The notes: a model not told the origin generated them from the sequence alone. Positions 12,314-56,635 are shown, counted from the first letter of the stretch. The stretch: DNA of 64,000 nt from Eledone cirrhosa (GCA_964016885.1 OZ024741.1:231384001-231448000), one strand, 5' to 3'. Made by a program: numbers and translations.

Positions 12314-12436
12314 TCCACTGATGATTTATAAGCGCCCACCTAAATATATTCTTACATGAATATATATTAGGCTTCTACATAAACTGGAAATATTCTCCCA
12401 ACTTGTAGAAAACTTATAATGAAACAATTGTTTGGA
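12314..12436 (+). ncRNA. Type I hammerhead ribozyme with a 96-nt branched stem II
   Basis: TCCA-CTGATGA-T-TTATAAG...CTTATAA-T-GAAAC-AATT-GTT|TGGA. The insert holds the hairpins CCTAAATATATTC/GAATATATATTAGG and TTCTACA/TGTAGAA. Confidence 0.75.
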
Positions 12437-13299
12437 AACGGAGATATACTTTAACTTTAATTATATCTCATAAAATAATACGACTGGTTTTTCCACATTA
12501 TACATATTGTTAGCAACCCAAACACATAAATTGGGTTTATATTTAAATATAACCTAATGTTTGTTGAGTGAGATGGTTACCAGTCAGAGTTTAGCTTTAA
12601 ACTATCTCTGTTATTGTATTAAATATTTACTCTTGATTGGCCAGAGGTGTTTATTTCCAGGTACCTTATGAATTTGACTTTCCGTATTTATTACTGTAGT
12701 GAAATGTTGTGGCTTTTTTTGGTTGTAACTTCTCTGTTTTTTAGCCTAAGAAAATATATATATGCCTATGTATATAATTACATGCATACCTTTATTTTCT
12801 TTAATTAATTGAGTTCTTTACACGAGGAATTAATATTAGTTGTGAAATAACTGATTAACCCGCGTGTGTTTTATATTTTACTCTTAATTCGGCCGGAGAT
12901 TTACATTCCCATTTGCCCTTTAAAGCATAACTTTCTGCGGTTATGAGATGTGGTTCTTATTCAGGTACAACTTCTGATTTTAGCCTAATAAAATATCTAT
13001 ATGCGTGTATAATTTATACACGCATTTATTTATTTTTTTTATTTTCAATTGAGTTCTTAACACGTTGGATTGATAATGTTTTCGAAAAAACTAATTAACC
13101 CGCGTGTATATTATTTTTTTCCTCCTTTCGTGGATCGTAGTTGTCTCCCCTTCCCGCTTCGTGTCGCTATGATACTTCCTCAGTCAAAAACTGCTGGAAT
13201 TTCAAATTTGGCGGTCATTCGAGGCGAGAAGGAGCAACTTAACAGGCACGATTTTTGACTGCGGTAAGAATGTCTTTCTTATATCAAAGTTTAATGGGC

Positions 13300-13424
13300 T
13301 TCCACTGATGATTTATAAACGCCCACTTAAATATATTCAAACATGAATATATATTAGGCTTCTACATAAACTGGAAATATTCTCCCAACTTGTAGAAAAC
13401 TTATAATGAAACAATTGTTTGGAA
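13300..13424 (+). ncRNA. Second copy of the long-stem-II hammerhead ribozyme
   Basis: TTCCA-CTGATGA (13305-13311) ... GAAAC-AATT-GTT (13417-13419) | TGGAA. Confidence 0.75.
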
Positions 13425-13647
13425 AGAGAGATATACTTTTACTTTAATTATATGTCATAAAATAATACAACTGGTTGTTTCACATTATACATATTGTTAG
13501 CACCCCAAACACATAAATTGGGTTTATATTTAAATATAACCTAATGTTTGTTGAGTGAGATGGTTACCAGTCAGAGTTTAGCTTTAAACTATCTCTGTTA
13601 TTGTATTAAATATATATATATATATATATATATATATATGTGTGTGT

Positions 13648-52000: not shown

Positions 52001-53278
52001 ATATATATGTATATATATATATGTATATATGTATATTATATATATGTATATGTATATATATATGTATATATATATATGTATATATATATATGTATATATA
52101 TATATATATATATGTATATGTATATATATATATGTATATATGTATATTATATATATATATGTATATGTATATATATATGTATATATATATATGTATATAT
52201 ATATATGTATATATATATATATATATATATATATGTATATATATATGTATATGTATATATATATGTATATATATATGTATATATATATGTATATATATAT
52301 ATGTATATGTATATATATATATATATATATATATATATATATGTATATATATATGTATATATATATGTATATATATATATATATATATATATATATATAT
52401 ATATATATATATATATATATATATATATGTATATATATATATATGTATATATATATATATATACACATATATATATATAAACATATATATATATATATAT
52501 ATATATATATATATATATATATATGTATATATATATATATATGTATATATACATATATATGTATATATGTATATATATGTATATATGTATATATACATAT
52601 ATATGTATATATATATATATATGTATATATATATGTATGTATATATATATATGTATGTATATATATAAATGTATGTATATATATATATATGTATGTATAT
52701 ATATATATATATATGTATATATATATATATATGAAATATATATATATATATATATATGTATGTCTATATATATATATATGTATATATATATATATATATG
52801 TAAATATATATATATATATATATATATATATATATATATGTATGTATATATATATATATGTATGTATATATATATGTATGTATATATGTATATATATATA
52901 TATATGTATATATATGTATATATGTATATATGTATATGTATATATATATGTCTATATATATATGTATATATATATGTATATATATATGTATATATATATA
53001 TGCATATATATATATATTTGTATATATATATCGTATATGTATATATATATGTAAATATATATATATGTATATATATATATATTTGTATATATATATCGTA
53101 TATGTATATATATATGTAAATATATATATATGTATATATATATGTATATATATATATGTATACATATATATATATATGTATATATATATATATATGTATA
53201 TATATATGTATATGTGTATATATATATATGTATATATATGTATATATATATATGTATATATATATATGTATATATATA
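49047..53278. repeat. ~4.2-kb (TA)n-based microsatellite array
   Basis: Direct inspection; TA with interspersed TG, CA and TATG variants. Confidence 0.95.
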
Positions 53279-54552
53279 AACTTAACACACTTTCAGATAA
53301 TTACCCTCCATAAACTCTTATTATTCTCTTTTTAATTACCCTTTCTGACTTACTTTCATTTATAGCCTTGTCATTAATTTCATTTAATTTTATTTTTATT
53401 ATTTGTTTATTTTTATTTTTATTTTTATTTTTTTTATTTTTGCGCAGCCAATCTTACAATTTTATATTTGTACTTACTTAGCCACAAGTTTTTTACACCC
53501 TGTATCAATATGGCTGAACGTCTTAATGTGTGTATACTTTCTATATATGTACATGAGCGACTACGTATGTGCGCGCGCGTGCGTGTATCTATATCTCTCT
53601 ATATATATCTATGTATATATATATGTGGGTGTATGTATATGTGTATGCGTACGTGTATGTGTCTTTATATCCGTGTTCTTGACATCTAGGTTTTATGTTT
53701 TGTTCCTCTTTTCTTCTCCCCCCCCCCTTTTTTACTTACTCATTTTTATGCGTGTGCATGCAAACAGGTCAATATGCGCGAGTGTAAGTATGTGTGTGTG
53801 TGTGTGTGTGTGTGTGTACGTATCGAACGTATGGATGTGTAAGTGTGCGTGTGTATATAAGCTGTATATTTTTGCGTATCTTTTGTGAGATATGCGTGTC
53901 TGTGTATGTATGTACCCGTTTTGTCTTCTTTTCTTTAATTTTTTCTTTCTAAATTTTTTGTTTCTAAATTATTGTTCCATTTTTATAAATATATCGAGAT
54001 TGATACTTTCCTTTAATTAGTACACTCCCTTACCTCTTTTACTTCCGCATCTAAGTGTACGTGTGTGTAGGTGTGTTTATGCGCGCGCCTTCATATTCAT
54101 ATTCTTATGATGTATCTATTCTGTCTGTAGATTACAGACAAACAGATACATTTGCCCTAAATTTTATATTTACGCACACTTTTTCACTATACGTATACAT
54201 ATGTGCATACACATATATGCACATCTGTGAGCGTATATACATACATATACACACACCTAAATATATTTCTTGAAAGATTATTATATATTTCATATTCTAA
54301 TTCATTTGTCTATATCTTTTTTTTTTTTATTTTCTTGACGAGACTTTCCAAGTATTTACCCATGTTTTATATTGCCTCGTCTGACGAACGAATGAAGACG
54401 CTTCTTTCGTATTCGCCTCATTCGGGAAACCTCTGGTAATGAGGTAATTATATTGTATTGATTTTTATACATTAAATTTTGCTCTGGTACTTACATAGAG
54501 CACTCTTCACTTCTATGACCTTTTCTGTTTTCAACGGAAATTTCAATACCGA
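53279..54552 (+). mobile_element. Non-coding PLE tail/pLTR copy 1; copy 2 at 56835-58292
   Basis: Both copies start AAACTTAACACACTTTCAGATAATTA and end CAACGGAAATTTCAATACC plus (TA)n. The terminus also occurs inverted at ~31000-31080. Confidence 0.8.
54371..54448 (+). ncRNA. Full type I hammerhead ribozyme with a canonical core
   Basis: ATTGCCTCGT-CTGACGA-A-CGAATGA...TCATTCG-G-GAAACC tct GGTA|ATGAGGTAAT, with a 10-bp stem I and a GUA site at 54436-54438. Confidence 0.85.
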
Positions 54553-54796
54553 TATATATATATGTATATATATGTATATATATGTATATATATATATGTA
54601 TATATATATATGTATATATATATGTATATATATATATGTATATATATGTATACATATATATATATATATATATATATATATATATATATATATATATATA
54701 TATATATATATATATATATATATATATATATATGTATATATATATATATGTATATATATATGTATATATATATATGTATATATATATATGTATACA

Positions 54797-56635
54797 TAAA
54801 TTATTAAAAAAATTATGAATAAACAAAGAAACAGTTCCTTATATTAAACCAAAACAGTTCATTATTTTACGATCGTTTCTAGGACATATATGTGTTAGAA
54901 TTGGTATGCATATTCAAAAGATCTACGTACAAAATTATACAAACTATCAGAGTGAATATACATACCTTCACATATATATGCTGTCTTCAGAAATAATGAT
55001 GCTTGTTTATTGATAATAACAACAATTCAAAATAATAGCTCTGTTTGGGAACAGATTTTAAGTAGACCAATGAAATAAAGATTGAGATACATAAAAATTT
55101 ATCAACAAAATACAGTTAGGTGCGTATATATGTATGTAAATACGCTCACAGATGTGCATAAAAGTGTATGCTCATATGTATACGTATAGTGAAAAAGTGT
55201 ATGTAAATATAAAATTTAGGGCTAATGTATCTGTATGTCTGTAATCAACAGACAAAATATATATATATATAAAAATACATATGTATGCATATATATGTGT
55301 ATATATATATATATATATATATATATATATATATATATATATATATATATATATATATGTATATGTATGTGTAGAGATGTGTGTATGTATGTGTATATAT
55401 GTGTGTATGTATGTGTATATATGTGTATATGTGTCTGACTGTGTACATATGTGTGTGTATGTCTATATATATATATATGTATGTCTGAGTGTGTGTGTGG
55501 TTGTATATATACATGGGTATGTGTGTATATATATATATATATTTATATATATATATATATATAGGTGTATATTTATATGTATGGGTATATGTTTTACGTA
55601 TTTTTATGTGTGTGCATACAAACAGGTCAATATGCGTGAGTGTAAGTATGCGTATGTGTGTGTGTATGTATGTACGTATCGAACGTATGGATGTGAAATG
55701 TGCGTGTGTATACAAGCATGTATATTTTATGTCTCTCTTTTATGTTTTTTTTATGTTTCTTTTGTGAGTCATGCGTGTCTGTGTATGTACGTACCAGCCC
55801 CCCTTTTTTTGTCTTTTTTTGTCTTCTTTTCTTGAGTTTTTTTCCTTCTATAAAAATGTTTTTTTATTTTTTTATTTCTAATTTATGAATACATTTTTAT
55901 AAGTATGTCGAGATTGACACTTTCCTTTAATTACTATACTCCCTTACCTCTTTTACTTCCGCATCTAAATGTAAGTGTGTGTGGGCGTGTTTATGTGAGC
56001 GCCTCAATATTCATATACTTATGATGTATATATATATATATTTTGTCTGTTGATTACAGACATACAGATACATTAGCCCTAAATTTTATATTTACGTTCA
56101 CTTTTTCACTATACGTATACATATGAGCATACACTTTTATGCACATCTGTGAGCGAATTTACATACATATATACACACCTAACTGTATTTTCTTGATACA
56201 TTTTTATGTATCTCAATCTTTATTTCATTGGTCTATTTAAAATCTGTTCCCAAACAGACCTATTATTTTGAATTGTTGTTATTATCAATAAACAAGCATC
56301 ATTATTTCTGAAGACAGCATATATATGTGAAGGTATGTATATTCACTCTGATAGTTTGTATACTTTTGTACATAGATCTTTTGAATATGCATACCAATTC
56401 TAACACATATATGTCCTAGAAACGATCGTAAAATAATGAACTTTTTTTGTTTAATATAAGGAACTGTTTCTTTGTTTATTCATTATTTTTTTAATAATTT
56501 ATTTTGACTCTGTTTTCCGTTTATCTTTCACCGAAAGTGATTTTTGAATGCATCTCTTCTTTTCATGATATCCGGATTATATTGAGTTCTTCATCCGGAG
56601 TGGACACTACCAGAAACTTTTGGTAGATTTATCTA
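54797..56635. mobile_element. Fold-back non-autonomous PLE-like element with ~460-bp arms
   Basis: 54797-55270 is inverted at 56030-56501. The interior 55600-56180 is homologous to 53740-54260. Confidence 0.8.
56299..56439 (+). ncRNA. Type I hammerhead ribozyme with a 104-nt stem II; mirror copy at 54859-54999 (-)
   Basis: TCATTATTT-CTGAAGA-...CATATATATGTG..GGTATG TATATTCA...TGAATATG CATACC..CACATATATG...-GAAAC-GATC-GTA|AAATAATGA, with a 9-bp stem I. Confidence 0.78.

What the first reader, a model, noticed from the sequence alone, without database searches (positions are those of the whole stretch)
12314..56439. A class of hammerheads with giant structured stem-II insertions, found in unrelated element families
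Seen: three families with different sequences keep stem I, the core and a palindromic mini stem III (AATT or GATC) while stem II is expanded. These are 96 nt and two-branched (12314, 13300, 44567), 81 nt (15821, 24182) and 104 nt as a long rod (56299, 54859). Intermediate 36-54 nt versions occur at 24554, 30878, 26951, 54371 and 58112. Several also replace the usual 10.1-11.1 pair with U.U or C.A. Established: PLE HHRs are normally minimal, with a short stem II. Inference: such motifs would probably be missed by length-limited descriptor searches, and the insert might be an RT-binding, regulatory or tertiary-contact domain.
Basis: partly seen in the sequence, partly recalled or inferred. Interest (0 to 1): 0.8.

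Follow-up and report, generated by a model that had tools for sequence, protein, structure and literature searches.

The report
Oversized-arm hammerheads of Hydra Penelope elements
Several jumping-gene families here carry the hammerhead self-cutting RNA motif already known from Hydra-type Penelope elements, but one arm is swollen to 81-104 bases instead of the usual 26 or fewer, likely through separate tolerated expansions rather than one new functional domain; cutting itself is untested.

Summary
Two counts differ by one base, one by two bases. Neither 81-nt copy has an intact core, and one of three full 96-nt copies is broken.

They are type I hammerheads at the 3' ends of Hydra-clade Penelope-like elements and, by inference, their non-autonomous derivatives. 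The palindromic stem III, the U.U closing pair and GUU sites are already published for this clade (Craig 2021, File S2).

The new part is stem II size. Six of eight families here have 34-104 nt, against 8-25 nt in 53 motifs from related elements and 12-26 nt in 26 published rows. The 104-nt family is high-copy, occurs under three species labels, and varies mostly in ways that keep its fold.

It is not one class. The inserts share no sequence or shape, and the 104-nt and 38-nt families share a body. No two-sided compensatory change was seen. Best reading: repeated, tolerated expansion in a lineage whose 3' UTRs also grew. A protein-binding role remains open. This scan noted expanded stem II before, on phage and bacterial DNA.

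The parts
12314..12436 (+). Family A hammerhead, intact core, 96-nt three-way-junction stem II (12325-12420), U.U closing, predicted cut after 12432 (GUU)
13300..13424 (+). Family A hammerhead, second tandem copy, intact core, 96-nt stem II (13312-13407)
12314..13609 (+). Family A element: repeat-body-repeat between (TA)n tracts, 987 nt between the two predicted cuts, no ORF of 120 aa or more; inferred non-autonomous
44567..44692 (-). Family A hammerhead, 97-nt stem II, GAAA changed to GAAT (core broken)
43605..43693 (-). Family A hammerhead, 5' part only; jumps to body sequence inside stem II
43161..45366 (-). Second tandem array of family A (unit about 999 nt)
15821..15934 (+). Family B hammerhead, 81-nt stem II (15835-15915), core U4C
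24182..24296 (-). Family B hammerhead, 82-nt stem II, damaged core
14058..15082 (+). Broken Hydra-type PLE ORF upstream of the B hammerhead (RT thumb and C-terminus present, most of the endonuclease missing); inverted RT piece at 13926-14072
56299..56439 (+). Family C hammerhead, intact core, 104-nt rod stem II (56315-56418), C.A closing; element 3' end at 56502
54859..54999 (-). Family C hammerhead in the inverted copy 54801-55246 (97% identical; probably the same insertion event)
55680..56236 (+). Body shared by families C and D (homologous to 53824-54304 and 57367-57852)
54371..54448 (+). Family D hammerhead, 38-nt stem II, A.G closing
58112..58189 (+). Family D hammerhead, second copy
24554..24624 (+). 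Family E hammerhead, 36-nt rod; a broken inverted copy lies at about 24463-24533(-)
30878..30946 (+). Family E hammerhead, 34-nt rod (z -4.5)
26952..27043 (-). Family F hammerhead, U3-A8 core, 54-nt stem II, long palindromic stem III, about 1050 nt downstream of the Hydra ORF
28082..29257 (-). Hydra-clade PLE ORF piece (RT C-terminal part, CxCX5C linker, endonuclease); inverted N-terminal and RT pieces at 29260-30529(+) carry DKT
46036..47151 (+). Hydra-clade PLE ORF piece with CxCX5C and GIY-YIG (Pfam E 1.3e-4)
48952..49005 (+). Family G hammerhead, ordinary 14-nt stem II (internal comparison; also 58711-58764(-))
16492..16534 (-). Family H hammerhead, 14-nt stem II with U.U closing (internal comparison)

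Best explanation
These are type I hammerhead motifs near the 3' ends of Hydra-clade Penelope-like elements and their likely non-autonomous derivatives, in which stem II likely grew several separate times and was tolerated because the insert folds back on itself and would leave the predicted dimer-cutting core intact. Shown: the motifs and their position 45-190 nt before a (TA)n target; Hydra ORF remains upstream of families B, F and G; inserts unrelated to each other; 3' UTRs of about 750-1800 nt against a median of 158 nt in relatives. Predicted: two copies pair through the 8-nt stem III palindrome to form the active double hammerhead, as established for PLE hammerheads. Inferred: these ribozymes use no loop I-loop II contact, so the far end of stem II is free; insertions that close on a 7-11 bp basal helix survive, and selection acts on folding back rather than on a particular sequence or shape. 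Not shown: cleavage, expression, and an ORF link for A, C, D and E.
For: Clade features CxCX5C, DKT and (TA)n targets in window ORFs. Ancestral state is short: 53 credible motifs from 77 related loci have 8-25 nt, and 26 published Hydra rows have 12-26 nt. Here the lengths form a series of 14, 14, 34-36, 38, 54, 81, 96 and 104 nt with no insert homology. C (104 nt) and D (38 nt) sit at the same place on a shared body. ORF-to-ribozyme distance also grew. In family C, 8 of 9 listed stem II substitutions are unpaired or keep the pair (p 0.003-0.04), and no listed row falls in the core, stem I or stem III except the allowed H17 A>U. The active dimer is the predicted minimum for C (-86.4 against -75.0 kcal/mol for two monomers) and within about 3 kcal/mol for A and B. 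Engineered hammerheads carry aptamers in stem II and still cut (PMC12192606 passage).
Against: Distal helices of C, beyond what closure needs, also show pair-keeping changes (56389, 56393), and the motif is about 93-95% identical in two other species labels; this fits a function too, or simply a young family. Only 40 of 105 substitution rows were shown, the structure was predicted from the window copy, and RAD enzyme sites probably bias some X8 shares. Between the two B copies, 4 of 10 substitutions break predicted pairs. C.A and A.G closing pairs were seen in 0 of 53 relatives and may reduce activity.
Confidence: 0.6

Rival explanations
1. The large stem II is a functional domain: a binding site for the element's RT-endonuclease protein or a host factor that switches the ribozyme on or recruits the RNA. 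It would act like a natural aptazyme and let a roughly 200-nt ribozyme-plus-tail unit spread on its own.
For: The Anolis Poseidon hammerhead cuts only with its ORF protein (PMC11167929 passages). Family C is high-copy: 1973 contigs laid in X1 and 6985 reads in X8. Depth about doubles at the ribozyme's 5' edge in X8, 314 reads have loose ends before 56301, and organism B has depth only from that bin onward. Pair-keeping variation in distal helices. The family A monomer folds well as a circle (z -5.3 against 25 shuffles).
Against: No shared sequence or shape among inserts. Sister family D does without it. All 53 credible relatives have 25 nt or less. 5' junctions also fall in or at short-stem hammerheads (G at 45968, H at 16807), so the boundary is not specific to long inserts. 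No two-sided compensatory change seen.
Confidence: 0.25
2. The long-stem motifs no longer cut. The core survives as a passenger in young, abundant repeats or as a non-catalytic structural signal, and the insert or the odd closing pair has silenced the ribozyme.
For: Both B copies and one of three full A copies have broken cores. Monomer minimum-energy folds sequester the core. Many family C copies begin upstream of the cut site, and no boundary at 56431 is among the 19 of 290 loose-end rows shown. In Poseidon, cleavage was not needed for insertion in vitro.
Against: No listed family C variant hits a core position across many copies and three species labels (40 of 105 rows shown). Stem I, the palindrome and the NUH triplet are kept in families with different sequences. 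Broken cores are expected in inserted repeat copies.
Confidence: 0.14
3. Chance: a CUGANGA and a GAAA far apart in AT-rich, hairpin-prone repeat DNA.
For: Element bodies contain other strong hairpins, 5 of 113 windows at z <= -5. Allowing long gaps does give false hits: 3 in the loci and 8 in phage contigs.
Against: 10 hits against 0 in the reversed window. 9-bp stem I in C. Clade-typical GAAAC-palindrome-GUH. Correct position and strand relative to PLE ORFs and (TA)n tails.
Confidence: 0.01

Closest known systems
Canonical hammerheads of Hydra-clade PLEs (Craig et al. 2021, PMC8557442, File S2), including Hydra-1_Obim of Octopus bimaculoides
   Same: Type I, near the 3' end, (TA)n targets, short palindromic stem III, U.U at the base of stem II (14 of 26 rows), GUU cut sites (10 of 26 rows), short stem I.
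   Different: Published stem II domain is 12-26 nt (23 nt in Hydra-1_Obim); here 34-104 nt, branched in family A. C.A and A.G closing pairs are not in that table. 3' UTRs here are much longer.
Minimal hammerheads of metazoan PLEs (Cervera and de la Pena 2014, PMC4209133)
   Same: In pLTRs, dimer-type, 'larger than usual' helix II, no clear loop-loop contact, U3-A8 core variant (family F), high sequence variability.
   Different: 'Larger' there means 7-8 bp; no 80-100 nt domain is described in the two of four parts read.
PLE-X1_sMoe hammerhead of Selaginella (File S2 of PMC8557442, flagged 'deviates from canonical structure')
   Same: PLE hammerhead with a long stem II domain (9 bp plus a 35-nt loop, about 54 nt by my count): a precedent for the intermediate sizes.
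   Different: Other clade and kingdom, and about half the size of A and C.
Metazoan non-LTR retrozymes (Cervera and de la Pena 2020, PMC7229834)
   Same: Family A is a tandem, ORF-less repeat with one type I hammerhead per unit and a well-folding monomer; axolotl HHR_Amex2 also has U.U at the base of helix II.
   Different: Monomer about 990 nt against 170-400 nt; Hydra-type rather than canonical ribozyme; circular RNA not tested.
Discontinuous Clec2 hammerhead of mammals (PMC6155905, PMC6765202)
   Same: A natural hammerhead with a very large insertion in one arm (150-1500 nt).
   Different: Type III, insertion in helix I, host mRNA rather than a retroelement.

Membership tests
Type I hammerhead ribozyme | Core CUGANGA, GAAA and NUH | tested here: met
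   Intact in A 12314 and 13300, C both copies, D, E 24554 and 30878; U3-A8 variant in F; broken in A 44567 and both B copies
Type I hammerhead ribozyme | Three helices around the core, stem I open-ended | tested here: met
   Stem I 4-10 bp; basal stem II helix 7-8 bp (A, B) or 2+11 bp (C); stem III 2 bp as monomer or 8 bp as dimer
Type I hammerhead ribozyme | Canonical 10.1-11.1 pair | tested here: not met
   U.U in A, B, H; C.A in C; A.G in D. U.U is a known natural variant; C.A and A.G were not seen in relatives
Type I hammerhead ribozyme | Site-specific self-cleavage | not testable with these tools
   Needs an in vitro assay
Type I hammerhead ribozyme | Match to an Rfam hammerhead model | tested here: not met
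   No hammerhead hit for A or C at E <= 10; only the 14-nt copy at 58715-58759 appears among the 150 of 289 rows shown, at 33.3 bits, below the 34 cut-off
Hydra-clade PLE | RT followed by C-terminal GIY-YIG endonuclease | tested here: met
   The 28082-29257 piece has no Pfam hit itself but is 38% identical to the GIY-YIG-bearing 46036 piece
Hydra-clade PLE | CxCX5C linker and DKT motif | tested here: met
   CxCX5C in ORFs 28082-29257 and 46036-47151, DKT in 29067-29660; definition
Hydra-clade PLE | Insertion into (TA)n | tested here: met
   Tails of A, B, D, E, G end at (TA)n in the window; reads show (AT)n behind 56502 for C
Hydra-clade PLE | N-terminal RWK motif | tested here: inconclusive
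   Not seen in the window's ORF fragments; present in related loci L048 and L053 (read by eye)
Hydra-clade PLE | Placement in an RT phylogeny | not tested
   No tree built; assignment rests on motifs
Hydra-clade PLE | Physical link of each long hammerhead to a Hydra ORF | tested here: inconclusive
   Shown for B, F and G; A, C, D and E have no own ORF in the window, so their link is inferred from ribozyme type and target
Non-LTR retrozyme (family A) | Tandem non-coding repeat with one type I hammerhead per unit | tested here: met
Non-LTR retrozyme (family A) | Monomer of 170-400 nt with canonical tertiary-contact ribozyme | tested here: not met
   987-999 nt and a Hydra-type ribozyme
Non-LTR retrozyme (family A) | Accumulates as circular RNA | not tested
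   No RNA data were laid on family A
A single new class of long-stem-II hammerheads | Shared sequence or shape of the insert | tested here: not met
   0 of 30 comparisons above shuffles; junction, interrupted rod and long rod
A single new class of long-stem-II hammerheads | Two-sided covariation in the insert | tested here: inconclusive
   Only one-sided G.U/A-U changes among the rows shown; unlinked read tables cannot show paired changes well

The most novel reading that the evidence does not exclude
Hydra-type retroelements of this lineage evolved natural protein-gated hammerheads. Each family grafted its own 80-100 nt recognition domain onto stem II, and that domain docks the RT-endonuclease, so a 200-nt ribozyme-plus-tail unit became a self-contained mini mobile element. 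These would be natural aptazyme-like hammerheads, and they would show what PLE hammerheads are for.
Probability: 0.15. Interest if true: 0.75.

Novelty: new variant of a known kind. Interest (0 to 1): 0.45.

Why it matters
It widens the known size range of stem II in PLE hammerheads from about 26 nt in this clade (54 nt in one plant element) to 104 nt, and shows that Rfam and strict descriptors miss such motifs in a high-copy repeat. Ribozyme counts in these genomes, and calls of 'no hammerhead' or 'half core' in other PLE families, may therefore be too low. The role of PLE hammerheads is an open question. A natural series of 14-104 nt, with sister families that differ only in the ribozyme cassette, gives ready-made constructs to test whether stem II matters for cleavage or for protein binding.

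Tried and rejected
Whole genome: none is held, so no genome-wide alignment or R-scape test was possible.

Sequencing runs: no RNA holder listed for family C; this says nothing about expression. In one search the places where X8 reads begin or end (56390, 56396, 56235, 56472) were set aside as probable RAD enzyme sites.

Rfam: no hammerhead match for A or C; the whole-window list is swamped by microsatellite miRNA matches.

Related loci: none in viral contigs. Three long candidates among the 77 metagenome loci (79, 82, 161 nt) were dropped before the count of 53: two lie in the ORF, none closes on the core, and the control gave 3 hits too. Three other long hits of the looser scan (128, 155, 170 nt; no GAAAC) were also taken as chance. 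24 of 77 loci gave no hit; 20 of them have under 420 nt downstream.

An A/B-type pattern in viral contigs gave 8 matches that lack stem I and vary like codons; rejected.

Ideas rejected: that the shared TT...AT GAAACAATTGTT of A and B proves recent common origin (the TT...AT closure is common across the clade); that inserts are local duplications (no match elsewhere in the window except one 14-mer); Neptune assignment (my first guess; replaced by Hydra).

Papers not held: Lunse 2017 (PMC5785218) and Arkhipova 2017 (PMC5850863), which used relaxed descriptors and could hold precedents. Searches that found no report of 80-100 nt stem II domains in PLE hammerheads.
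Full report
OBSERVATION. A stricter version gave 10 hits in the window and 0 in the reversed window. I call the families A (96-97 nt; 12314, 13300, 44567, plus a 5' fragment at 43605), B (81-82 nt; 15821, 24182), C (104 nt; 56299, 54859), D (38 nt; 54371, 58112), E (34-36 nt; 24554, 30878), F (54 nt; 26951) and the ordinary G and H (14 nt). 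Against 200 dinucleotide shuffles the inserts score z -6.1 (A), -5.4 (C), -4.5 (E 30878), -1.8 (B) and -0.9 (D). As a caution, 5 of 113 windows from the same elements' bodies also reach z <= -5. Cores are intact in 2 of 3 full A copies, 0 of 2 B copies and 2 of 2 C copies; the two C copies are probably one inverted insertion.

CONTEXT. The window is packed with transposon debris: PLE RT and GIY-YIG pieces, a Helitron and a LINE. The PLE ORFs at 28082-29257 and 46036-47151 carry a CxCX5C linker, the piece at 29067-29660 carries DKT, and the elements end in (TA)n. These features define the Hydra clade (Craig 2021, PMC8557442; passages, supplement search, supplement part 2 of 59). No tree was built. 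B lies about 750 nt downstream of a Hydra-type ORF remnant that lacks most of its endonuclease; F and G lie about 1050 and 1800 nt downstream of theirs. A is a roughly 990-nt tandem unit with no ORF of 120 aa or more, so I infer it is non-autonomous. That the host is an octopus is my recall from the repeat landscape, plus a by-eye likeness to Hydra-1_Obim; it was not tested.

WHAT IS ALREADY KNOWN. File S2 of Craig 2021 lists 26 Hydra hammerhead rows. By my hand count, 14 close stem II with U.U, 10 cut at GUU, most have a self-complementary stem III, and the stem II domain is 12-26 nt. The same file has a Selaginella PLE hammerhead with about 54 nt. Cervera 2014 (parts 1-2 of 4 read) describes the dimer-type PLE hammerheads, helix II of 7-8 bp and the U3-A8 core. 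Cervera 2020 (passages) reports U.U at the base of helix II in axolotl. Frangieh 2024 (passages; author name recalled) shows a PLE hammerhead that needs its protein to cut and is not needed for insertion in vitro. Very large natural insertions are known in helix I of the Clec2 hammerhead (passages). My searches found no report of 80-100 nt stem II domains in PLE hammerheads, but two relevant papers were not held.

COMPARISON WITH RELATIVES. I aligned the window protein with 37 of the 120 listed homologues and fetched 77 related loci from metagenomes, hosts unknown. 53 of 77 loci gave a hit, 56 distinct motifs in all; 53 have a stem II of 8-25 nt and 3 long ones were rejected on inspection. Closing pairs among the 53: U.U 23, G-C 14, G.U 6, A-U 5, others 5, with no C.A or A.G. 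The ribozyme lies a median 158 nt after the ORF match (43 loci, range 83-548). So 6 of 8 families here exceed 30 nt against 0 of 53 relatives, and the whole 3' UTR has grown too. The expansion looks lineage-specific.

FAMILY C ACROSS COPIES. Laying four runs on 56150-56620 gave 1973 contigs (X1) and 6985 reads (X8) for organism A, and 33 and 28 contigs for organisms B and C. Examples are 56301-56394 with 6 differences and one gap, and 56355-56429 with 4 differences. Of 105 substitution rows, 40 were shown. None falls in the core, stem I or stem III apart from H17 A>U, which makes GUU the majority triplet. Nine fall in stem II: 5 unpaired, 3 pair-keeping, 1 breaking a terminal pair (p 0.003-0.04 under four nulls; the rows are a selected subset). 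Of the 6 listed indels in stem II, 4 lie in loops or bulges and 2 in helices. No two-sided compensatory change was seen. The element's 3' end is at 56502, followed by (AT)n, and many copies start at 56301, the 5' edge of stem I.

NOT ONE CLASS. None of 30 insert comparisons beats shuffles, and the shapes differ. C and D share their upstream body and diverge completely about 60-70 nt before the ribozyme. This suggests that the ribozyme-plus-tail cassette was replaced and that 38 and 104 nt are interchangeable there.

MECHANISM. Predicted: as monomers the active fold is 1.7-3.2 kcal/mol above the minimum for A, B and C. Pairing two copies through the 8-nt palindrome gives an active dimer that is the minimum for C and within about 3 kcal/mol of it for A and B. 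Inferred: with no loop I-loop II contact to keep, stem II can take any insert that folds back, as engineered stem II aptazymes do (review passage), so repeated slippage or insertion in an AT-rich lineage produced unrelated large arms (0.6). Rivals: a functional protein-binding or regulatory domain (0.25), a silenced ribozyme (0.14), chance (0.01).

DETECTION. Rfam gave no hammerhead hit on A or C at E <= 10. Perreault 2011 (passages) rejected 10.1-11.1 mispairs. Craig 2021 used a 7-17 nt spacer for its core-only search and noted 'half cores' at 35-50 nt.

EARLIER NOTES OF THIS SCAN (unchecked AI notes): expanded stem II hammerheads in two phages and a Patescibacterium, and short shark PLE copies that start at the ribozyme. 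Nothing for this genome or for the family A sequence.

VERDICT. Real, a new variant of a known kind, not a new class. Interest 0.45.

Noticed in passing
window 56301; also 12314, 24554, 16807, 45968: 5' junctions of PLE copies cluster at or inside the hammerhead, upstream of the cut site: the start of stem I in A, C and E, the core in H, stem II in G. For C, 314 reads have loose ends and several reads switch strand at 56301-56305. This suggests uncleaved RNA is copied and that many copies are solo 200-nt ribozyme-plus-tail units. Cause unexplained.
   Followed up: partly
window 12314-13609 and 43161-45366: Family A is an ORF-less tandem element of about 990 nt with an internal 245-nt duplication; its cut-to-cut monomer folds well as a circle (z -5.3). 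It resembles an oversized retrozyme with a Hydra-type ribozyme.
   Followed up: partly
window 53824-54550 against 55680-56500: Sister families C and D share a body but have non-homologous ribozyme-plus-tail cassettes. E's 3' end is joined to the inverted RT piece of F's family at 30529. Both hint at cassette swapping between PLE RNAs.
   Followed up: partly
window 12325-12420, 15835-15915, 56315-56418: The basal stem II helix strands of A, B and C are themselves palindromic (6-10 nt), so they could also pair between molecules; noticed after the fact and possibly due to AT and RY richness.
   Followed up: no
window about 360-400(-), 5055-5095(+), 6830-6865(-), 24960-25000(-) and 26690-26730(+): Further short hammerhead-like motifs, some with the U3-A8 core; only the one at 6861 came from a scan, the others were read by eye.
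   Followed up: no
window 1740-2228, 33277-33429, 39623-40165, 42748-43099: Long near-perfect inverted repeats (fold-back elements) of 150-540 nt.
   Followed up: no
window 17003-21374 and 34124-36639: Decayed Helitron (Rep and Pif1 helicase) and an endonuclease-RT LINE on the minus strand.
   Followed up: no
window 57868-58067: A run of about 200 N between two near-identical family D copies; 56840-58288 may partly be an assembly duplication of 53283-54547.
   Followed up: no
L001-L077: 53 of 77 metagenome contigs with Hydra-type ORFs gave a hammerhead-pattern hit, nearly all short; U.U closing in 23 of the 53 short motifs. A ready set for a Hydra-specific covariance model.
   Followed up: partly
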